A stretch of DNA of 64,000 bases from Naegleria gruberi. Lineage: Eukaryota. The first letter of the stretch is position 1. Each line of letters starts with the position of its first letter. The translations under genes and the position numbers were made by a program. The stretch lies in NCBI GenBank assembly GCA_000004985.1, contig GG738848.1. One strand, 5' to 3'. Positions 16,671 through 62,885 of the stretch are shown piece after piece. The notes under the pieces are model-generated. The model ran no database searches. It had not been told where the DNA came from and saw nothing but the letters and a program-made list of their open reading frames with translations.

Positions 16671-16743
16671 TGCTGACGGACGGGATCGAACCGGCGACCA
16701 ATGGCTTATTAGACCAACGCTCTACCGACTGAGCTACGCCAGC
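16671..16743 (-). tRNA. tRNA-Ile (anticodon AAU), 73 nt.
   Basis: The cloverleaf folds by hand. The acceptor stem is GCUGGCG/CGUCAGC with one G-U pair. The D arm is GCUC-AGUCGGUA-GAGC, the standard A box. The anticodon loop is CUAAUAA. The T arm is GCCGG-UUCGAUC-CCGUC, the B box, with one C-U mismatch. A U27-U43 mismatch is also present. A T-run (TTTT) follows the 3' end. The two non-Watson-Crick pairs lower confidence and it could be a slightly decayed copy. Confidence 0.6.
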
Positions 16744-16908: not shown

Positions 16909-16989
16909 GTTGAGGTGGCCGAGTGGTTAAGGCGCCAGCCTGCTAAGTTGGTGGAGAAATCCGCGTGGGTTCGAATCCCATCCTCAACG
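16909..16989 (+). tRNA. tRNA-Ser (anticodon GCU), type II with a long variable arm, 81 nt.
   Basis: The acceptor stem is GUUGAGG/CCUCAAC with discriminator G. The D arm is GCC-GAGUGGUUAA-GGC. The anticodon stem is CCAGC/GUUGG with loop CUGCUAA. The variable arm is 13 nt (UGGAGAAAUCCGC). The T arm is GUGGG-UUCGAAU-CCCAU. TTTT lies just downstream. Confidence 0.8.
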
Positions 16990-40302: not shown

Positions 40303-41809
40303 TTAATATTTTTCATGTAATTCTTGGAAGTGTGTTTCGGTTTTCTTCCTATTCAAGAAAACTAGTAAAATACACACCACAATACACAATGCAATCAAAG
40401 ATAGAATAAATAATACACCAACAGCAATAATTGGCTTCAATGTAAATAAATAATCAACTGGAGCAGTACTGAATTGAAAGTTTCCACCTTTTGAGAATAC
40501 TACATAGTATTGAGTTGCTTCTCCTGAAAAGAGATAGAGATTAGTTGAATTTACATGATAGTCATAATTGAAAAATTGATTTCTTTCAATATTCCAAGTG
40601 ATTGGTTTCTTTCCAATATAAACATCTTGAATTGTTGCTGTATTTTCAATTCTGATTTCAAAATATGTTTGAGGTTGAGTGGTGAAAGTTGCTGTGAATG
40701 GTGCGGAATTATCACTTTGAATTGAGTATGTTTGTCCAATTTCAAGTTTAGTATAATTAAAACTAATCTTTTTAGCATAAAACAAATTATATACAGCACT
40801 GGGTGGAGAAATTGTGAATGAATAATCTGGATTTCTATTGGAGATGACTTGTTGTGTAAGATTTGATTGAACAATGGCTACCATTTCTTGATTTGAATTT
40901 GAGAATTGCCACACTGATTGAACTGGATCATTAGATTTCAACTCTTGAGCTATCAATGAAATGCAACCATAATTTTGATAGAAATGATCTTCTTTCACAC
41001 TTTCAATTGAATTCCATTCATTTACCAAACAATTCCCAATATAAAATAAAACATTTCGTTGCTGAATAGGATTCAGTTTCAACACCAAATTAGGTTGTCC
41101 ATAAACGNNNNNNNNNNNNNNNNNNNNNNNNNNNNNNNNNNNNNNNNNNNNNNNNNNCTGATTTCATTCTGGGAATGTTAAATTTGCAAAATCCACATTA
41201 ATTTCCATAACTTTTCCCCATTCAACTGGTTTTGTTTCTCCATATGGACAAGCAAGTTTAGATTTTCCAGAAAATCCATAATTGATAACACCACCTTCTT
41301 TTGATTCACCAGTGAATGTGAGAGTTGGTCTTTCAGCAGCAGTGAAATCACATGTTAAAGAAATAGACAATGCTCTTGTAACTCCATCAGTAGCAGGAAT
41401 ACCAGCATGGAAGACCTTTACACCAGCACTTTCATCTGCAGGATTGAGCAATGAAAGTTTAGGAGTACCTTTCTTACCGATAGGATAGCAGAGATTGTAT
41501 TGTTTAGCATATAGATATCCTTGAGCGTCAACAGTACAAACAGCATTGCTTGGATTGGTAACTCCTCCACAAATATTGCTAAAATTCCAACTAATTAGTT
41601 TCCGATAATAATAAACAAAATACATACAAATAAAAGTTGAAATTAGCATCGGTTGCTGCAACTTTATATCCTGAACCAGGAATATCAATATTAGAAAGGT
41701 CGATAATTCCTCTATAAGCAATTGGTAATGAACAAGTCGGTGCGGAGAATACAACATGCACACAACAAGCAAGCAGCAATGTGAGCAACACAAAGGTCAA
41801 TCGTAACAT
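40303..41809 (-). CDS. Surface protein paralogue A with a signal peptide, an extracellular domain and a single C-terminal TM with a short cytoplasmic tail. It has two exons and is interrupted by a 50-N assembly gap.
   Basis: Exon 1 is 41809..41628 (MLRLTFVLLTLLLACCVHVVFSAPTCS...) and ends at a GTATGT donor. A 49-nt intron spans 41579..41627. Exon 2 runs from 41578 to 40303. It is about 90% identical to gene B over the ectodomain. The C-terminus is IIAVGVLFILSLIALCIVVCILLVFLNRKKTETHFQELHEKY. A 1-nt deletion relative to gene B creates a stop just before the gap at 41108..41157. Confidence 0.45.
41108..41157. other. Assembly gap of 50 N inside tandem paralogue A.
   Basis: A run of exactly 50 N. 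The flanks align to adjacent positions of paralogue B, so little or no real sequence may be missing. Confidence 0.9.
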
Positions 41810-54923: not shown

Positions 54924-56749
54924 TTATTTCTTGATTTCTTTTACTTCTTTATCTACCAATTTGATAGCTAGTTTAGCTCTTGCATGTATGATATCATCAA
55001 AAGTAAATCCACTTATCTTTTGACACTTTTCCAAAAGACTCTTTGTTTCATGTAAATATTTCAGTTTTTCCTCCTGTGAATTTTCAACTCCAGCAACAAC
55101 CTTATTAAAATAGGTGAACTCTGCCAATTCATAATATGAAAATGCTGACCAAATCTTTTCAATTTTGATCTTTTCAAATGAAGTGGTTTTGTGAAATTCT
55201 TGTAAACTTTCCTCAGCCTTGTTCAAAACTTGTAAAAAGTGTGCGTTAACGAAATGAATTCCAGAGCAAATATCTGGATAAACCTTTGATTTCTCATCCA
55301 CAACCTTTACATCCAACACAAATTGTTTGAAAAATTCATACAACGGTGTAATTAATTCCTCACTCATGTGTAACAAGTCTCTATTCCAATAGATATTCTG
55401 GAATAAAGAGAGAATTATAAATAGGTGTCTATCTTGCTCATTCTTGATATGTTTGAGAGTTTCTACCTTCTCGTGTGGGAATTTGTTTTGCTTGGAGACC
55501 TTCTTTGCCAGTGAATCAATGAGTTGATTTGCAGCTTGTTTATCACCCTTTTTGAGTTTACAAGCGGCCAAAAGAATGATACTATTACCTGTGGCATCAA
55601 ACTTTCCCTTCTCATGATTTGCCACTTGAGTTGACAACTCTTCAGCTTGTTCCAAATTGCCAGCATAAAATTGAGCTAGTCCCAAAACATAAATCATACT
55701 GATTGGTGTTTCTCCTGATGCTTGTGTCAAAACTTCAATGGATTGTGAAATGTTTTCTATTGCCTTATTCACCTGTCCATTTTTCACATTGTGATAAGCA
55801 ATTACAAATTTGAAAAATCCACTTTTTGGATAGAGATTGCCAACTTTTTGTAAAATTGGTTCTGCCAAATCCAAATTAATTTTAGGTTTTTGGAATGGAG
55901 TAGGAATGAATAGGTATTTCAAACAGAGCATAAAGGTTGCCTTTCCCAAGATTCTTCCACCATATTGCTGAGCTTTCTTCATCAATTCAAATCCCAAATC
56001 TCTATCAATATTGAATCCAATATGACTCAAAATGGCAAGTAGATCAGGAGGTAACACTGAAACCAATCCAACTCCAAAATACGTTGGATAAATCACATCA
56101 CTATGAATGAAATTATTTGAAGTTTTTGGTTCATTCTTAAATTGTTCAATTTTGTGATAAATTTCCTTATATTTCATAAAACAACTTCTAAAATTGTAAA
56201 ACCCTCTAATATATGATCCATCCATAAATTGCAATAAACTTCTCAATAAATGTGATTCAGCATCCACCAATTTCAAATCCAATTCATAATTAAACATTTG
56301 TTGATCTCTTGTCAATTCCTCTAATTTACAATAATTTTCACTTGTCTTTTCAGCAGAATCAAATCTTTCCAAATCTTCCACAGTAATCTCGGCATTCCAC
56401 TTTGAAATCTCATCAATCATCTTACTAATATCCTCAGATCGTTTATAACGTTGCAAAGTTGACTCCAATCCACCCAATTTATCAAAGGCAAATTTTCTCA
56501 TATTTTCATCACCACATGCAGCTGACACGAAAGCAGCTGAATTTAATATTTTACAAAATATTTAATTGATGAATTATTAAATAATAATATATTATCAATA
56601 CATAGTGTAATGATGAACAACAACTTACGAATTGTGGCCAATTCCAATGCCATCCTCGGAATGTGTGATTTATCAGCCATATACTCCTTGGCTTGCTCTA
56701 ATTCAGTATTCCAGACGAGGTAGTTTGCCTTGGTGATGCAGGCGTACAT
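54924..56749 (-). CDS. TPR-like helical-repeat protein with two exons.
   Basis: Exon 1 is 56749..56629 (MYACITKANYLVWNTELEQAKEYMADKSHIPRMALELATI) and ends at a GTAAGT donor. A 92-nt intron spans 56537..56628 with acceptor aattcAG. Exon 2 is 56536..54924, phase 1, verified in frame with ORF 54924..56528, whose M is a GTG. The body consists of alpha-helical repeat segments. Confidence 0.5.
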
Positions 56750-57120
56750 TTTTACTTGTTTTTTTTATTGTTTGTTGGATTGCATGATTTTGTGCGCTTG
56801 GAGTGGGTGTTTGTTTTTGAGGAGTAATAAAAAAACTCCGCGAACGGACTATGGTATTCTATTACTGTTATCTTTGGGACATTTATGCAATCTCACGAGC
56901 CATAGTACCAATTGGTATGAAGAAATCATTGAAAATGGTGGAAGCTAAGCTACGCGTTGTGGGATAGAGATCGATTTATTAAGAAGAACAAAAATTAGGT
57001 AATAAGGATTAATTTCCATCACATTTGACGTCATTTACTTGTTGGATTTTGTAAACTCTAAAAGTGTTATTCACAAAATCCAACAACTGCTATTGAAGCC
57101 ATGCAATCATGTAAAAAAAA

Positions 57121-57835
57121 ATGTCATTTGTGAGTTGCATTGGTGGCTTTCAATTTTTCAACATGTTTTCCAACTTGCTCTCAAAATTAACAACCCCAAA
57201 CAAGAGAAAGATTCAAATTTGCATGTTGGGAATTTGGTCTTGCGGAAAAACAACACTACTATACAAAATGGTGGGTCTTGATGGAGGTGGTCAAACCATT
57301 CCAACTATCGGATTTAATGTTGAATCAGTAGATTGTGAATCTCATACTCTTGAATTTGTATGTGCATTGAATGTTTCATGATCATTAATTATATATTTTA
57401 ATTAATAATTATTGTGCTGCAAATCATATGGATGAATATATATTGTATATTTTGATAATTACGTAGTGGGATATTGGAGGAGGATGTGCAATTCCACCAT
57501 TGTGGAAACACTACATCACTCCATCAGAAAATTTAAATACAAATTGTATCATTTTCATGATTGACAGCCAGAATACAGATAGACAGTACCTACAGGAATC
57601 TTTTAGGAATTTGAAAGATAATGTTTTACAGGTGGCTAATGTCAAGTTACTGATCTTGTTGAGCAAGTATGATTTTGATTCACATGATGGAACTGTGAAT
57701 CAGTGGGAAATTACAGATATTTTGAATGAGTGCAAGTTGGTTGATCCTTCTTATGAGTGGGTGATCAAGAAGTGTAATGCAAGGAATGGGAAGGGAGTCG
57801 AGGAAATTCTTGATTGGATTGTGGAGAATTGTTAA
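57121..57835 (+). CDS. Atypical Arf/Arl-family small GTPase with two exons. The catalytic Gln is replaced (WDIGGG) and NKxD reads SKYD.
   Basis: Exon 1 runs to 57357. G1 is LGIWSCGKTT and the Arf switch-I signature is IPTIGFNVE. The GTATGT donor is at 57358. A 109-nt intron spans 57358..57466 with acceptor acgtAG. Exon 2 is 57467..57835 and begins WDIGGGCAIPPLWKHYI. The Arf-like start MFSNLLSKL at 57163 may be the true initiator. Confidence 0.7.
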
Positions 57836-57894: not shown

Positions 57895-59676
57895 TTGCAC
57901 CAATTTTATTTTAACCTTAAAAAAATGTCTATAAGCTCATCGTCAAGAATCACAGATTACTTCATCAATCCTCCTAAGGAAACACCTCCTAAGGCAGAGG
58001 AGAGCGTAATAAAGTACCCGTCTCTCGGTTGTGCTGGAGTGCTTAGTTCTGCTACAGTAGGAAGTGTAGCAACACAATTGTCACAACCTATGTTCCTTAA
58101 CAATTTCGGAATTAATGTTGATGCAGCACTAACTGATGATAAAGGAGAAAGAAACGAAGCAGAAAGAAATTTAGAGAAGGTGTTTTCACAGGACATTATT
58201 GATGACGCTTTGTTTAAAATAACACAAAGAAAATCTAATATTAAGGTTGGAGAAAACCACTCATGTGCTCTTGTTAATTGTAATTTGTTTTTGTCTATTA
58301 GATTTACAGATATGAAAGTGGATATGAACGGAAAAGAGTTAATACTTAAAGCTTCAGATGACGTTACTCACCACTCCAAATTCTCTAATCAAAGAGAAGA
58401 AGAAAAAGCCTCTTTTGATCTAACAGACGACGAGAAATCCTTCAATCTTTTATTGTATTACATGCAAAGTGTGTTGAGGGACACGTTGAAACCAGATTAT
58501 TACGTTATGCTTAATCAATGTAAATTTGTTACGGACCTTTTTGGCAAAAACATTGTTGAGATGTTCAGAGCAGAATCCAAAGAAATGAGGGAGGATTTTT
58601 TTGCAGATTTGTAAGTAGCTAATTAACTGGTTCAATGTTAATATTTCATAGTTTGAAAGTTATTATGCTGTCTCAAAGGCAATGCTTAGTGTTGATGGAG
58701 CAACTTGAAAAGAAAACAGGTTATATTTATCCCATTAAGGCTCCAAGTATGGGGAATGCTGGCGATTTTTACAGACTTTCAATGACAACAGTTCTCCCTT
58801 CGGAATTATTTTACTTTCTATTATTCGAATTGCAAATTACAAATCCAACTTTCACACAATTCAAATTGGCATCAATCATCCAACAGTTAAAAAACAAAAA
58901 GACCGATGTAAAGGCAGTCATAGATAACAAAAAGAGCGTTTCTGATGAAAATATACGTCTCATGGACAATCGTTACAAAAGTCTTGAACAAAAACTAACA
59001 ATACTAGAAAGCTTTTACCCAGAATTCTTAAGAGATCAAAATATTGTTATAGATAACACTGCATGCTGTTCAGCCATCGATAAACTCCAAGCAGGAATTG
59101 CTATTAAAGGAAGCATAATTTCTAATGAAAAAGATGTTAGAAGTCTTTTTTTGGATTGTCAAATTATTTCTAAATATGTAATTGAACTCACTAAGAGAGT
59201 GTTAAGAGAATTAGGAGTTGATATGAGTCTTATTATCACTAACACCGGAAAGGAGTTGAGTGATATAGACATTGACAACCATTTTGATTGTCTAAATATT
59301 AGATTCAAAAGAATGGTAAGTATCAAAACGACTTGAAGTTAAATCATATTGTAGCCAACAAACAGAAATAACAGATCTCGTGTCTTCATTGTTGAGAAAT
59401 ATTTGAATGATAAATGGTCCAAAACTCATATAATCAAACACTATGATGACAAAGATTACTTTGACAACGAAACTTATAGCAACCCTTTAGTTCTTAATAA
59501 GCATCACCGTGACCAAGTCCCTAACCTTTTTGTAGCAATTATGCCATTTATTGTTCATGATCATTCATATTGTACCCAAGAAAACATGCTTAAGATACTG
59601 TACTCTGCATCTCTATGTCTCTCAAAAACTCACAAGATGAAACATGTTCACGGAGACATAAAACCTGATCATATTT
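57895..59676 (+). CDS. Multi-exon gene ending in a protein-kinase catalytic domain. Partial, because the 3' end runs into the assembly gap.
   Basis: Exon 1 is 57895..58610. The ORF-track stop TAA is actually part of a GTAAGT donor. Intron 58611..58651 is 41 nt with acceptor tcatAG. Exon 2 is 58652..59315, with a GTAAGT donor right after ...FKRM. Intron 59316..59354 is 39 nt with acceptor ttgtAG. Exon 3 is 59355..59676+ and encodes RVFIVEKYLNDKWSKT (subdomain V-like) ... KMKHVHGDIKPDHI (catalytic loop HxDxKxxN-like). All junctions were checked in frame. Confidence 0.45.
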
Positions 59677-62600
59677 NNNNNNNNNNNNNNNNNNNNNNNN
59701 NNNNNNNNNNNNNNNNNNNNNNNNNNNNNNNNNNNNNNNNNNNNNNNNNNNNNNNNNNNNNNNNNNNNNNNNNNNNNNNNNNNNNNNNNNNNNNNNNNNN
59801 NNNNNNNNNNNNNNNNNNNNNNNNNNNNNNNNNNNNNNNNNNNNNNNNNNNNNNNNNNNNNNNNNNNNNNNNNNNNNNNNNNNNNNNNNNNNNNNNNNNN
59901 NNNNNNNNNNNNNNNNNNNNNNNNNNNNNNNNNNNNNNNNNNNNNNNNNNNNNNNNNNNNNNNNNNNNNNNNNNNNNNNNNNNNNNNNNNNNNNNNNNNN
60001 NNNNNNNNNNNNNNNNNNNNNNNNNNNNNNNNNNNNNNNNNNNNNNNNNNNNNNNNNNNNNNNNNNNNNNNNNNNNNNNNNNNNNNNNNNNNNNNNNNNN
60101 NNNNNNNNNNNNNNNNNNNNNNNNNNNNNNNNNNNNNNNNNNNNNNNNNNNNNNNNNNNNNNNNNNNNNNNNNNNNNNNNNNNNNNNNNNNNNNNNNNNN
60201 NNNNNNNNNNNNNNNNNNNNNNNNNNNNNNNNNNNNNNNNNNNNNNNNNNNNNNNNNNNNNNNNNNNNNNNNNNNNNNNNNNNNNNNNNNNNNNNNNNNN
60301 NNNNNNNNNNNNNNNNNNNNNNNNNNNNNNNNNNNNNNNNNNNNNNNNNNNNNNNNNNNNNNNNNNNNNNNNNNNNNNNNNNNNNNNNNNNNNNNNNNNN
60401 NNNNNNNNNNNNNNNNNNNNNNNNNNNNNNNNNNNNNNNNNNNNNNNNNNNNNNNNNNNNNNNNNNNNNNNNNNNNNNNNNNNNNNNNNNNNNNNNNNNN
60501 NNNNNNNNNNNNNNNNNNNNNNNNNNNNNNNNNNNNNNNNNNNNNNNNNNNNNNNNNNNNNNNNNNNNNNNNNNNNNNNNNNNNNNNNNNNNNNNNNNNN
60601 NNNNNNNNNNNNNNNNNNNNNNNNNNNNNNNNNNNNNNNNNNNNNNNNNNNNNNNNNNNNNNNNNNNNNNNNNNNNNNNNNNNNNNNNNNNNNNNNNNNN
60701 NNNNNNNNNNNNNNNNNNNNNNNNNNNNNNNNNNNNNNNNNNNNNNNNNNNNNNNNNNNNNNNNNNNNNNNNNNNNNNNNNNNNNNNNNNNNNNNNNNNN
60801 NNNNNNNNNNNNNNNNNNNNNNNNNNNNNNNNNNNNNNNNNNNNNNNNNNNNNNNNNNNNNNNNNNNNNNNNNNNNNNNNNNNNNNNNNNNNNNNNNNNN
60901 NNNNNNNNNNNNNNNNNNNNNNNNNNNNNNNNNNNNNNNNNNNNNNNNNNNNNNNNNNNNNNNNNNNNNNNNNNNNNNNNNNNNNNNNNNNNNNNNNNNN
61001 NNNNNNNNNNNNNNNNNNNNNNNNNNNNNNNNNNNNNNNNNNNNNNNNNNNNNNNNNNNNNNNNNNNNNNNNNNNNNNNNNNNNNNNNNNNNNNNNNNNN
61101 NNNNNNNNNNNNNNNNNNNNNNNNNNNNNNNNNNNNNNNNNNNNNNNNNNNNNNNNNNNNNNNNNNNNNNNNNNNNNNNNNNNNNNNNNNNNNNNNNNNN
61201 NNNNNNNNNNNNNNNNNNNNNNNNNNNNNNNNNNNNNNNNNNNNNNNNNNNNNNNNNNNNNNNNNNNNNNNNNNNNNNNNNNNNNNNNNNNNNNNNNNNN
61301 NNNNNNNNNNNNNNNNNNNNNNNNNNNNNNNNNNNNNNNNNNNNNNNNNNNNNNNNNNNNNNNNNNNNNNNNNNNNNNNNNNNNNNNNNNNNNNNNNNNN
61401 NNNNNNNNNNNNNNNNNNNNNNNNNNNNNNNNNNNNNNNNNNNNNNNNNNNNNNNNNNNNNNNNNNNNNNNNNNNNNNNNNNNNNNNNNNNNNNNNNNNN
61501 NNNNNNNNNNNNNNNNNNNNNNNNNNNNNNNNNNNNNNNNNNNNNNNNNNNNNNNNNNNNNNNNNNNNNNNNNNNNNNNNNNNNNNNNNNNNNNNNNNNN
61601 NNNNNNNNNNNNNNNNNNNNNNNNNNNNNNNNNNNNNNNNNNNNNNNNNNNNNNNNNNNNNNNNNNNNNNNNNNNNNNNNNNNNNNNNNNNNNNNNNNNN
61701 NNNNNNNNNNNNNNNNNNNNNNNNNNNNNNNNNNNNNNNNNNNNNNNNNNNNNNNNNNNNNNNNNNNNNNNNNNNNNNNNNNNNNNNNNNNNNNNNNNNN
61801 NNNNNNNNNNNNNNNNNNNNNNNNNNNNNNNNNNNNNNNNNNNNNNNNNNNNNNNNNNNNNNNNNNNNNNNNNNNNNNNNNNNNNNNNNNNNNNNNNNNN
61901 NNNNNNNNNNNNNNNNNNNNNNNNNNNNNNNNNNNNNNNNNNNNNNNNNNNNNNNNNNNNNNNNNNNNNNNNNNNNNNNNNNNNNNNNNNNNNNNNNNNN
62001 NNNNNNNNNNNNNNNNNNNNNNNNNNNNNNNNNNNNNNNNNNNNNNNNNNNNNNNNNNNNNNNNNNNNNNNNNNNNNNNNNNNNNNNNNNNNNNNNNNNN
62101 NNNNNNNNNNNNNNNNNNNNNNNNNNNNNNNNNNNNNNNNNNNNNNNNNNNNNNNNNNNNNNNNNNNNNNNNNNNNNNNNNNNNNNNNNNNNNNNNNNNN
62201 NNNNNNNNNNNNNNNNNNNNNNNNNNNNNNNNNNNNNNNNNNNNNNNNNNNNNNNNNNNNNNNNNNNNNNNNNNNNNNNNNNNNNNNNNNNNNNNNNNNN
62301 NNNNNNNNNNNNNNNNNNNNNNNNNNNNNNNNNNNNNNNNNNNNNNNNNNNNNNNNNNNNNNNNNNNNNNNNNNNNNNNNNNNNNNNNNNNNNNNNNNNN
62401 NNNNNNNNNNNNNNNNNNNNNNNNNNNNNNNNNNNNNNNNNNNNNNNNNNNNNNNNNNNNNNNNNNNNNNNNNNNNNNNNNNNNNNNNNNNNNNNNNNNN
62501 NNNNNNNNNNNNNNNNNNNNNNNNNNNNNNNNNNNNNNNNNNNNNNNNNNNNNNNNNNNNNNNNNNNNNNNNNNNNNNNNNNNNNNNNNNNNNNNNNNNN

Positions 62601-62885
62601 NNNNNNNNNNNNNNNNNNNNNNNNNNNNNNNNNNNNNNNNNNNNNNNNNNNNNNNNNNNNNNNNNNNNNNNNNNNNNNNNNNNNNNNNNNNNNNNNNNNN
62701 NNNNNNNNNNNNNNNNNNNNNNNNNNNNNNNNNNNNNNNNNNNNNNNNNNNNNNNNNNNNNNNNNNNNNNNNNNNNNNNNNNNNNNNNNNNNNNNNNNNN
62801 NNNNNNNNNNNNNNNNNNNNNNNNNNNNNNNNNNNNNNNNNNNNNNNNNNNNNNNNNNNNNNNNNNNNNNNNNNNNNNNNNNNNN
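59677..62885. other. Assembly gap of 3209 N.
   Basis: A run of N. The 1198-aa minus-strand ORF at 59622..63218 is an artefact of translating N as X. Confidence 0.95.

What the first reader, a model, noticed from the sequence alone, without database searches (positions are those of the whole stretch)
57121..57835. An Arf-like GTPase lacks the catalytic glutamine and has an altered guanine-specificity motif
G1 (GIWSCGKTT) and the Arf switch-I signature (PTIGFN) are canonical. The G3 motif reads WDIGGG instead of WDVGGQ, so the Gln needed for GTP hydrolysis is absent. G4 is SKYD instead of NKxD. The protein is likely locked in the GTP-bound state or hydrolysis-deficient, like some ARL or pseudo-GTPase members. 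The 109-nt intron splits the gene exactly between switch I and G3.
Basis: partly seen in the sequence, partly recalled or inferred. Interest (0 to 1): 0.5.

Follow-up and report, generated by a model that had tools for sequence, protein, structure and literature searches.

The report
Divergent Naegleria Arf-like GTPase, already catalogued
This is a real two-exon gene of the amoeba Naegleria gruberi for a very divergent Arf-type small GTPase that lacks the residue needed to hydrolyse GTP, but the gene is already in GenBank and in a published catalogue, and such losses are common in this gene family.

Summary
Window 57121-57357 plus 57467-57835 (+), joined across a 109-nt GTATGT...TAG intron, encodes a 201-aa Arf-family protein (Pfam Arf, E=6.8e-34). 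Its motifs are GIWSCGKTT, PTIGFN, WDIGGG and SKYD. No alternative splice restores GGQ.

The window is Naegleria gruberi NEG-M. The gene is XP_002682027.1, "ARF/SAR family small GTPase". Vargová et al. 2021 list it as NgrArlX4, a divergent family member they left unassigned.

An exhaustive HMMER search found no orthologue. The best single domains are generic Arf1-like sequences (about 40% identity, at most 100 bits), although N. fowleri, N. lovaniensis and Willaertia proteomes are in the database. Arl13, the classic Gly-for-Gln Arf relative, scores only 36-49 bits. Tree placement is unstable.

Besides Gln-to-Gly and Asn-to-Ser, the protein has Trp in place of the family's P-loop Asp and Pro in place of the switch-II Arg. 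It also has no Gly2 for myristoylation.

By my count, 16 of the 36 N. gruberi Arf-family genes lack the catalytic Gln or His, so the loss is unremarkable here.

The most likely reading is a nucleotide-binding, hydrolysis-deficient Arf1-derived paralogue. That is inferred, not tested. Interest is low.

The parts
57121..57357 (+). Exon 1 (codons 1-79). It covers an N-terminal hydrophobic and amphipathic segment, the P-loop, switch I and the first part of the interswitch.
   Evidence: Searches show the ORF from the ATG at 57121, with an in-frame TAA at 57112-57114 upstream. tblastn of Arf1 and of the spliced protein hits exactly this block.
57163..57165 (+). Second in-frame ATG (Met15). This is the start used by the RefSeq/GenBank model XP_002682027.1 (187 aa).
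   Evidence: P0001 is 100% identical to the query over 93% of its length and starts MFSNLL. Its context, TTCAACATG, lacks the A-run seen before 11 of 21 long ORFs in the window. Met1 has GTAAAAAAAAATG.
57229..57255 (+). G1 / P-loop, GIWSCGKTT. The Walker-A Gly-Lys-Thr is intact, but the Arf-family Asp (Arf1 Asp26) is replaced by Trp39.
   Evidence: Read. All 81 aligned relatives have Asp at this column. Trp occurs once among about 385 P-loops surveyed.
57301..57318 (+). Switch I / G2, PTIGFN, including the Mg2+-coordinating Thr (Arf1 Thr48 equivalent). It is fully conserved.
   Evidence: P47, T48, G50 and F51 are invariant columns in alignment A1.
57358..57466 (+). Intron: 109 nt, GTATGT...TAG, phase 0, between Phe79 and Trp80.
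   Evidence: Size and splice sites resemble the neighbouring gene's intron (GTAAGT...CAG, about 95 nt). The annotated protein P0001 spans the junction exactly.
57467..57835 (+). Exon 2 (codons 80-201 plus the TAA stop). It covers G3 and switch II, a 5-residue insertion, G4, G5 and the C-terminal helix. The protein ends right after the G domain.
   Evidence: The AlphaFold2 model of the 187-aa form has mean pLDDT 86.3 and pTM 0.83, with the normal Arf order of strands and helices.
57467..57499 (+). G3 / switch II, WDIGGGCAIPP. Asp and Gly of DxxG are kept. The catalytic Gln (Arf1 Gln71) is Gly85 (57482-57484). The conserved Arg (Arf1 Arg75) is Pro89.
   Evidence: At these columns 95% of relatives have Gln and 96% have Arg.
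57662..57673 (+). G4, SKYD in place of NKxD. The Lys and the guanine-specifying Asp are kept. Asn (Arf1 Asn126) is Ser145.
   Evidence: All 81 relatives have Asn. SKxD also occurs in other divergent family members: EgrArl16 SKGD, NgrArlX1 SKVD and AgoArlX2 SKCD.
57773..57784 (+). G5 region, CNAR, aligned to Arf1 TCAT. The conserved Ala is kept.
   Evidence: Alignment to Arf1. A170 is a nearly invariant column in A1 and is kept in the query.

Best explanation
This is the Naegleria gruberi gene for NgrArlX4 (XP_002682027.1). It is an intact two-exon gene for a lineage-restricted, fast-evolved small GTPase of the Arf family, most similar to Arf1.

What the protein keeps:
- the Arf fold;
- an amphipathic N-terminal segment;
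- the residues that hold the phosphates, Mg2+ and guanine base: P-loop Gly-Lys-Thr, switch-I Thr, DxxG, and the Lys and Asp of G4.

What it has lost:
- the switch-II Gln that positions the attacking water;
- the P-loop Asp, now a bulky Trp at the position equivalent to Ras Gly12;
- the switch-II Arg;
- the G4 Asn;
- Gly2, so it cannot be myristoylated.

The most likely working model is that it still binds guanine nucleotide but cannot hydrolyse GTP, alone or with an ArfGAP. It would then sit mostly in the GTP-like 'on' form. It would be controlled by its abundance or by partners rather than by a GTPase cycle, as in Arl13b, the TRIM23 Arf domain and the Rnd/RhoH proteins.

Shown here: gene structure, family membership, motif changes, absence of close orthologues, prior annotation.
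Inferred: nucleotide binding, lack of hydrolysis, membrane association, and that the gene is expressed.
For: Identity:
- 100% match to XP_002682027.1 / EFC49283.1 / D2V1C6, 'ARF/SAR family small GTPase [Naegleria gruberi]'.
- Listed as NgrArlX4, 'unannotated', in Supplementary table 1 and dataset 1 of Vargová et al. 2021. Their definition of ArlX is a divergent member with no consistent affinity to any orthogroup.

Family and fold:
- Pfam Arf E=6.8e-34.
- Arf1 chains in the PDB score about 94 bits.
- AlphaFold2 mean pLDDT 86.3. Foldseek top hits are Arf1, Arf6, Arl1 and Arl3 with probability 1.00.

Affinity:
- Arf1-group references score 95-99 bits, Arl1 87, Arl3 73 and Arl13 36-49.

Motif changes at columns conserved in 95-100% of relatives are listed.

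An amphipathic N-terminal segment is retained. The hydrophobic moment is 0.61 for residues 12-23, against 0.52 for Arf1 residues 2-13.

Evidence that it is not a dead gene:
- No stop or frameshift in 201 codons, although the protein is about 60% diverged from every relative.
- From the window's base composition, about 7% of random codons would be stops. A chance open frame of this length has probability of roughly 2e-7 (my arithmetic).
- The splice sites are canonical and match the local intron type.

Precedent: Arl13b characteristically lacks this Gln, and Gln-to-Leu is the standard GTP-locking mutation (PMC6140319).
Against: - There is no biochemical or expression evidence. No transcript-derived copy of the protein was found in the databases; the cluster has one member on one genomic contig.
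- No orthologue exists to show that the changes are conserved.
- The Trp in the P-loop and the Ser in G4 could weaken or abolish nucleotide binding altogether.
- Some GTPases that lack the Gln are still switched off by GAPs that supply a catalytic residue in trans.
Confidence: 0.6

Rival explanations
1. It is a nucleotide-free or very low-affinity pseudoGTPase. The Trp in the P-loop, Ser in G4 and Pro in switch II together prevent stable nucleotide binding. The protein would act as a static scaffold, or as a decoy for Arf exchange factors, GAPs or effectors.
For: Four changes cluster at near-invariant nucleotide-pocket or switch-II columns. The P-loop Trp is unique among about 385 P-loops surveyed. 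Switch I and the interswitch, which are partner-binding surfaces, are well conserved.
Against: All residues that directly contact phosphate, Mg2+ and the guanine base are kept: GK[T], switch-I Thr, the Asp and Gly of DxxG, the Lys and Asp of G4 and the Ala of G5. SKxD occurs in other family members.
Confidence: 0.2
2. It is still a cycling switch. GTP hydrolysis would be supplied in trans by a dedicated GAP, as with the RapGAP Asn thumb, or by another residue of the protein.
For: The nucleotide-binding skeleton and switch I are conserved. Many Arf-family members in this genome lack the Gln, which suggests the family tolerates or compensates for the loss.
Against: No candidate compensating residue is evident in switch II (GGGCAIPP). 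A Trp at the Ras Gly12-equivalent position would be expected, from knowledge of Ras Gly12 mutants, to block an arginine finger. No partner was identified.
Confidence: 0.1
3. It is a decaying or unexpressed duplicate, a pseudogene in the making. The loss of invariant residues would reflect relaxed constraint rather than a new function.
For: No orthologue was found in N. fowleri, N. lovaniensis or Willaertia, although their proteomes are searchable. No transcript-derived sequence was found. Ten of 28 nearly invariant family columns are changed.
Against: The 201-codon frame is intact across a correctly placed intron despite about 60% divergence. The hydrophobic core and fold are retained (pLDDT 86). 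Twelve invariant columns are kept. Vargová et al. excluded putative pseudogenes and sequences with disrupted motifs from their table, yet they kept this gene.
Confidence: 0.1

Closest known systems
Arf1-group ('true') Arfs, e.g. NgrArf1a, Neovahlkampfia Arf1a, human ARF1
   Same: These give the best sequence scores (95-99 bits, 37-41% identity). They share the fold, the PTIGFNVE switch I, the Trp-Asp interswitch, an amphipathic N-terminal segment and a single G domain of about 180-200 aa.
   Different: Gln71 is Gly, Asp26 is Trp, Arg75 is Pro and Asn126 is Ser. There is no Met-Gly N-terminus, so no myristoylation. There is a 5-residue insertion after switch II. The margin over Arl1 is only about 8-12 bits, and Vargová et al. 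did not assign it to Arf1.
Arl13 / Arl13b (ciliary Arf-like GTPase, exchange factor for Arl3)
   Same: Gly replaces the switch-II catalytic Gln: DVGGG in NgrArl13, DLGGG in Euglena and Andalucia Arl13 (PMC6140319).
   Different: Sequence affinity is low (36-49 bits). N. gruberi has its own Arl13. The coiled coil that follows the Arl13 G domain is absent, because this protein ends at the G domain. The shared Gly is therefore convergent.
Other N. gruberi Arf1-derived paralogues without the Gln (NgrArf1g/h/i/j/k/l, NgrArlX2/X3), and the Arf domain of TRIM23
   Same: They are Arf1-like G domains in which the catalytic Gln is Lys, Leu, Ala, Asn or Ser. TRIM23 reads WDVGGK and is among the best-scoring single-domain hits.
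   Different: Several of these are fused to BTB or TRIM modules or carry long tails, whereas this protein is a bare G domain. None shares the Trp in the P-loop or the SKYD motif.
Rnd and RhoH atypical Rho GTPases (constitutively GTP-bound; from general knowledge, not tested here)
   Same: They combine substitutions at the positions equivalent to Ras Gly12 and Gln61. This predicts a protein that binds GTP but does not hydrolyse it and is regulated by its abundance.
   Different: They belong to a different Ras-superfamily branch. The resemblance is mechanistic only.
N-terminal domains of tandem-Arf proteins from 21% GC, gene-sized metagenome contigs (P0002-P0014, P0160)
   Same: They share WDIGGG (WDIGGGC in P0160), TTLLY and NCIIFM-type strings. 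They grouped with this protein in 141 of 200 NJ bootstraps with the first taxon set.
   Different: They score only 75-93 bits per domain, no better than generic Arf1. The grouping fell to 14-19% when more sequences were added. The source looks ciliate-like and is unrelated to Naegleria. These proteins also carry a second, canonical GGQ domain.

Membership tests
ARF family of small GTPases (Pfam PF00025) | Profile match above the curated threshold over the whole G domain | tested here: met
   117.3 bits against a cut-off of 22.3, covering residues 17-201 and profile positions 2-174 of 174.
ARF family of small GTPases (Pfam PF00025) | Arf-type switch I and interswitch (PTxGFN ... W/F-D-x-G-G) | tested here: met
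   PTIGFNVE and WDIGG are present. The corresponding columns are invariant or nearly invariant in A1.
ARF family of small GTPases (Pfam PF00025) | Arf G-domain fold | tested here: met
   AlphaFold2 mean pLDDT 86.3, pTM 0.83. Foldseek top 50 hits are all Arf, Arl1 or Arl3 structures, TM normalised by target up to 0.83.
ARF family of small GTPases (Pfam PF00025) | N-terminal amphipathic helix | tested here: inconclusive
   The hydrophobic moment is 0.61 for residues 12-23, against 0.52 for Arf1. AlphaFold2 gives this segment low confidence and no helix.
Arf1 orthogroup (true Arfs) | Clear best affinity to Arf1 over other orthogroups. Vargová et al. required a profile-score margin of at least 20 bits or phylogenetic support. 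| tested here: not met
   Arf1 references score 95-99 bits and Arl1 scores 87 by pairwise phmmer. NJ placement is unstable. The published catalogue lists it as 'unannotated'.
Arf1 orthogroup (true Arfs) | Gly2 for N-myristoylation and catalytic Gln71 | tested here: not met
   The N-terminus is MSF... or MFS..., and the Gln71 position is Gly. The myristoylation column is blank in the published table.
Arl13 | Gly in place of the switch-II Gln | tested here: met
   WDIGGG. Arl13 proteins read D[VL]GGG.
Arl13 | Sequence affinity to Arl13, and a coiled coil after the G domain | tested here: not met
   36-49 bits to three Arl13 proteins against 95-99 to Arf1. The protein ends at residue 201, directly after the last G-domain helix.
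PseudoGTPase (nucleotide-binding but catalytically inactive class) | Loss of catalytic residues while binding residues are retained | tested here: met
   Sequence evidence only. Gln71 is Gly, while GK[T], the switch-I Thr, DxxG and xKxD are kept.
PseudoGTPase (nucleotide-binding but catalytically inactive class) | Measured absence of GTP hydrolysis together with measured nucleotide binding | not testable with these tools
   This needs recombinant protein assays.
Pseudogene | Disabling mutations (stops, frameshifts, broken splice sites) | tested here: not met
   The frame of 201 codons is intact, and the intron has GT...AG ends in phase 0.
Pseudogene | Absence of transcription | not testable with these tools
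   No read-level RNA data are available here. No transcript-derived copy was found in the protein databases.

The most novel reading that the evidence does not exclude
NgrArlX4 could be a functional, Naegleria-specific 'always-on' or nucleotide-independent Arf derivative. Its unique P-loop Trp together with Gly71 would define a new way of disabling the Arf switch. It might, for example, act as a decoy that traps Arf exchange factors, GAPs or effectors through its conserved switch I and interswitch. A still bolder version is that it shares ancestry with the Gly-bearing N-terminal domains of ciliate-type tandem-Arf proteins. The unstable tree placement gives that version little support.
Probability: 0.1. 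Interest if true: 0.35.

Novelty: already known. Interest (0 to 1): 0.15.

Why it matters
It matters little beyond bookkeeping.

- The gene is one of six Arf-family members of N. gruberi that a family-wide study could not place. Loss of the catalytic glutamine recurs throughout the Arf family.
- If it is expressed, it would be one more natural example of a small GTPase turned into a non-cycling protein.
- The Trp at the P-loop position equivalent to Ras Gly12 is an unusual natural variant that a biochemist might find instructive.
- A practical point: the RefSeq model may start 14 codons too late.

Tried and rejected
1. Alternative splicing that restores DxGGQ. All in-frame GT...AG pairs were enumerated and none gives GGQ.

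2. A tandem duplicate or paralogue within the window. tblastn with this protein and with human ARF1 found only this locus.

3. Orthologue search.
   - The word-indexed search and the exhaustive HMMER search of 1.84 billion representatives appeared to give strong hits, up to 168 bits.
   - Per-domain rescoring showed these are two-domain proteins whose scores add up. No single domain exceeds 100 bits.
   - The best single-domain hits come from vertebrate TRIM23 or from unnamed metagenome and sequencing-run assemblies. The plant hit is a two-domain protein.

4. Synteny. The neighbouring Iml2/TTC39-like gene has orthologues in N. lovaniensis, N. fowleri and Willaertia magna. Nothing else around it is conserved, and there is no Arf-like gene within 10 kb (about 5 kb on one side in Willaertia, where the contig ends) in those genomes. 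Synteny therefore gave no answer.

5. Arl13 orthology, suggested by the shared GGG. Rejected on score and architecture.

6. Kinship with ciliate-type tandem-Arf N-domains. The first NJ tree gave 70% support. This fell to 14-19% with more taxa, with or without the switch-II columns. I treat it as long-branch behaviour.

7. Literature search for the accession numbers in main texts found nothing. The gene appears only in supplementary files.

8. An RNA gene in the intron or flanks. Rfam found only two tRNAs, far away.

9. The spliced 201-aa protein could not be submitted to the representative search, so the 187-aa database form was used instead.

Full report
**1. The observation**

Gene structure:
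- An ATG at 57121 is preceded by an in-frame TAA at 57112-57114.
- It opens a frame that runs to 57357.
- A 109-nt intron follows at 57358-57466 (GTATGT...TAG, phase 0).
- The frame resumes at 57467 and ends with TAA at 57833-57835.
- The spliced product is 201 aa.

| Motif | Sequence | Coordinates |
|---|---|---|
| G1 | GIWSCGKTT | 57229-57255 |
| Switch I | PTIGFN | 57301-57318 |
| G3 | WDIGGG | 57467-57484 |
| G4 | SKYD | 57662-57673 |

I enumerated every in-frame GT...AG pair around the junction. None gives GGQ. The neighbouring gene has an intron of the same type (GTAAGT...CAG, about 95 nt).

**2. What it is**

- The protein matches Pfam Arf (PF00025) end to end: E=6.8e-34, 117 bits against a cut-off of 22.3.
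- Its best solved relatives by sequence are Arf1 proteins, at about 94 bits.
- It is 100% identical to XP_002682027.1 / EFC49283.1 / UniProt D2V1C6, [quoted passage not shown]. That model is 187 aa and starts at the second ATG, Met15, at 57163.
- The window is therefore N. gruberi genomic DNA, at 32% GC with two assembly gaps.
- The gene is also in the family-wide survey of Vargová et al. 2021 (Genome Biol Evol 13:evab157, PMC8358228) as NgrArlX4.
  - Its annotation there is "unannotated". The myristoylation column is blank, there is no transmembrane segment, and no palmitoylated Cys is listed.
  - The authors define ArlX as divergent members with no consistent affinity to any orthogroup.
  - They state that putative pseudogenes and sequences with disrupted motifs were left out of the table.
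- No main text in the library mentions the accession.

**3. Relatives**

- The word-indexed search and the exhaustive HMMER search of 1.84 billion representatives returned hits of up to 168 bits.
- All hits above 100 bits are two-domain (tandem Arf) proteins whose domain scores add up.
- Rescored per domain, nothing exceeds 100 bits. The top domains are ordinary WDVGGQ Arf1-like sequences at about 40% identity.
- The named clusters among the best hits are vertebrate TRIM23 and a plant tandem protein, plus JGI entries with only generic names. The rest are unnamed metagenome or sequencing-run entries.
- As a positive control I searched the neighbouring gene. It has orthologues in N. lovaniensis and N. 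fowleri (42% identity) and in Willaertia magna (37%). Those proteomes are therefore in the database, and they hold no NgrArlX4 orthologue that stands out from generic Arfs.
- Synteny could not help. Only the neighbouring gene itself is conserved around those loci, and no Arf-like sequence lies in the flanking DNA retrieved (10 kb each side, about 5 kb on one side in Willaertia).
- There is no paralogue elsewhere in the window.

**4. Placement within the family**

Scores against classified references taken from the Vargová dataset:

| Reference group | Score (bits) |
|---|---|
| Arf1 group | 95-99 |
| Arl1 | 74-87 |
| Arl3 | 63-73 |
| Arl13 | 36-49 |

- The shared Gly with Arl13 is convergent. 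N. gruberi has its own Arl13 (DVGGG, with a coiled-coil tail).
- A first NJ tree put the protein next to the N-terminal, Gly-bearing domains of tandem-Arf proteins in 141 of 200 bootstraps.
- Those proteins come from 21% GC, gene-sized, intron-free metagenome contigs that look ciliate-like.
- With 15 more sequences the position became unstable. It was sister to P0138_N in 30-40% of replicates and to that group in 14-19%, with or without the switch-II columns.
- I read this as a long branch that cannot be placed, which agrees with the published "ArlX" label.

**5. What is changed and what is kept**

I aligned the protein with 81 relatives (alignment A1).

Kept:
- all 12 invariant columns: both P-loop Gly residues and the Lys, the switch-I Pro-Thr-x-Gly-Phe, the Asp of DxxG, the Trp and Tyr after switch II, the Lys of G4 and a C-terminal Gly;
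- the Asp of G4 and the Ala of G5.

Changed (residues in 201-aa numbering):

| Arf1 residue | Here | Conservation among the 81 relatives |
|---|---|---|
| P-loop Asp26 | Trp39 | 100% Asp |
| Gln71 | Gly85 | 95% Gln |
| Arg75 | Pro89 | 96% Arg |
| Asn126 | Ser145 | 100% Asn |
| Met-Gly N-terminus | absent | nearly invariant |

- Trp at that P-loop position occurred once among about 385 P-loops surveyed, and that one is this protein. "G1 canonical" is therefore only half right.
- SKxD is not unique. EgrArl16 has SKGD, NgrArlX1 has SKVD and AgoArlX2 has SKCD.
- The AlphaFold2 model is confident (pLDDT 86.3, pTM 0.83) and has the normal Arf topology.
- Foldseek returns only Arf, Arl1 and Arl3 structures. 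The query-normalised TM-score is somewhat higher for GTP-form than for GDP-form chains (about 0.69-0.73 against 0.61-0.63). That is weak evidence, because the chains differ in length.
- Residues 12-23 have a hydrophobic moment of 0.61, like the Arf1 N-terminal helix at 0.52. AlphaFold2 does not model a helix there.

**6. How it most likely works**

- By established Arf and Ras biochemistry, the switch-II Gln positions the hydrolytic water. Gln-to-Leu is the standard GTP lock, and Arl13b naturally lacks the Gln (PMC6140319).
- From general knowledge of Ras Gly12 mutants, a bulky residue at the equivalent position should also hinder a GAP arginine finger.
- The phosphate, Mg2+ and base contacts are kept.
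- The best-supported model is therefore a protein that binds guanine nucleotide but does not hydrolyse GTP. It would stay mostly in the "on" conformation on membranes and be regulated by abundance or by partners.
- This part is inference. The rivals are:
  - a nucleotide-free scaffold or decoy;
  - a switch completed in trans by a special GAP;
  - a decaying, unexpressed duplicate.
- Against decay: the frame is intact over 201 codons and a correct intron, despite about 60% divergence. From the composition, about 7% of random codons are stops, so a chance open frame of this length has probability of roughly 2e-7 (my arithmetic).
- In favour of caution: no transcript-derived copy was found.

**7. 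Context and novelty**

- I counted from the sequences. Sixteen of the 36 N. gruberi Arf-family genes lack Gln, or His in the Sar1 and SRβ group, at the catalytic position.
- These are Arf1g/h/i/j/k/l, Arl6b, Arl13, Arl16, ArlX1-4, Arfrp1, Sar1d and SRβ.
- Loss of the catalytic residue is thus routine in this genome and recurs across eukaryotes. Of the 335 domains rescored, 74 lack it, although that set is redundant.
- The gene is annotated and catalogued, and the kind of protein is known. Only the particular combination (Trp in the P-loop, Gly71, Ser126) seems not to have been commented on.
- I rate it as already known and of low interest (0.15).

**8. A side point on the gene model**

- Met1 (57121) sits in GTAAAAAAAAATG. 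This is the A-run context found before 11 of 21 long ORFs in the window and before both neighbouring genes.
- The RefSeq start, Met15, sits in TTCAACATG.
- The true protein may therefore be 201 aa, with a hydrophobic 13-residue extension (SFVSCIGGFQFF) ahead of the Arf-like amphipathic segment. Only transcript 5' ends can decide this.

Noticed in passing
window 57121-57165: The RefSeq model XP_002682027.1 starts at the second ATG (57163). The first in-frame ATG (57121) has the A-rich context typical of gene starts in this window, so the annotated protein may be 14 residues short at the N-terminus.
   Followed up: partly
window 54924-56749 (-): The upstream neighbour is an Iml2/TTC39-type TPR gene (NAEGRDRAFT_78228, 577 aa, one intron of about 95 nt). 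It is transcribed divergently, and its ATG lies 371 bp from the Arf-like gene's ATG. It has orthologues in N. lovaniensis, N. fowleri and Willaertia magna, but the genes around it are not syntenic.
   Followed up: partly
L004 (ENA metagenome contig, 1348 bp) and proteins P0002-P0014, P0146, P0160: This is a family of roughly 350-aa tandem-Arf proteins on 21% GC, gene-sized, intron-free contigs that look ciliate-like. The N-terminal domain has WD[IV]GGG and a degenerate G4 (GNIF or GNKF). The C-terminal domain is canonical, with WD[IV]GGQ and NKxD. It looks like a pseudo-GTPase paired with an active GTPase in one chain.
   Followed up: partly
N. gruberi Arf family (sequences): By my count, 16 of the 36 Arf-family genes of N. 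gruberi lack Gln or His at the catalytic switch-II position. They include several BTB-fused Arf1-like proteins.
   Followed up: partly
window 57925-58614 (+): The downstream neighbour begins about 90 bp after the Arf-like gene's stop codon. Its first 229 codons are open, and this ORF has no Pfam match. Its full structure was not worked out.
   Followed up: no
window 16671-16743 (-) and 16909-16989 (+): Two divergently oriented tRNA genes lie about 165 bp apart. They are the only Rfam matches in the window.
   Followed up: no
window 41108-41157 and 59677-62885: There are assembly gaps (runs of N) of 50 and 3209 bases. The second begins about 1.8 kb downstream of the gene.
   Followed up: no
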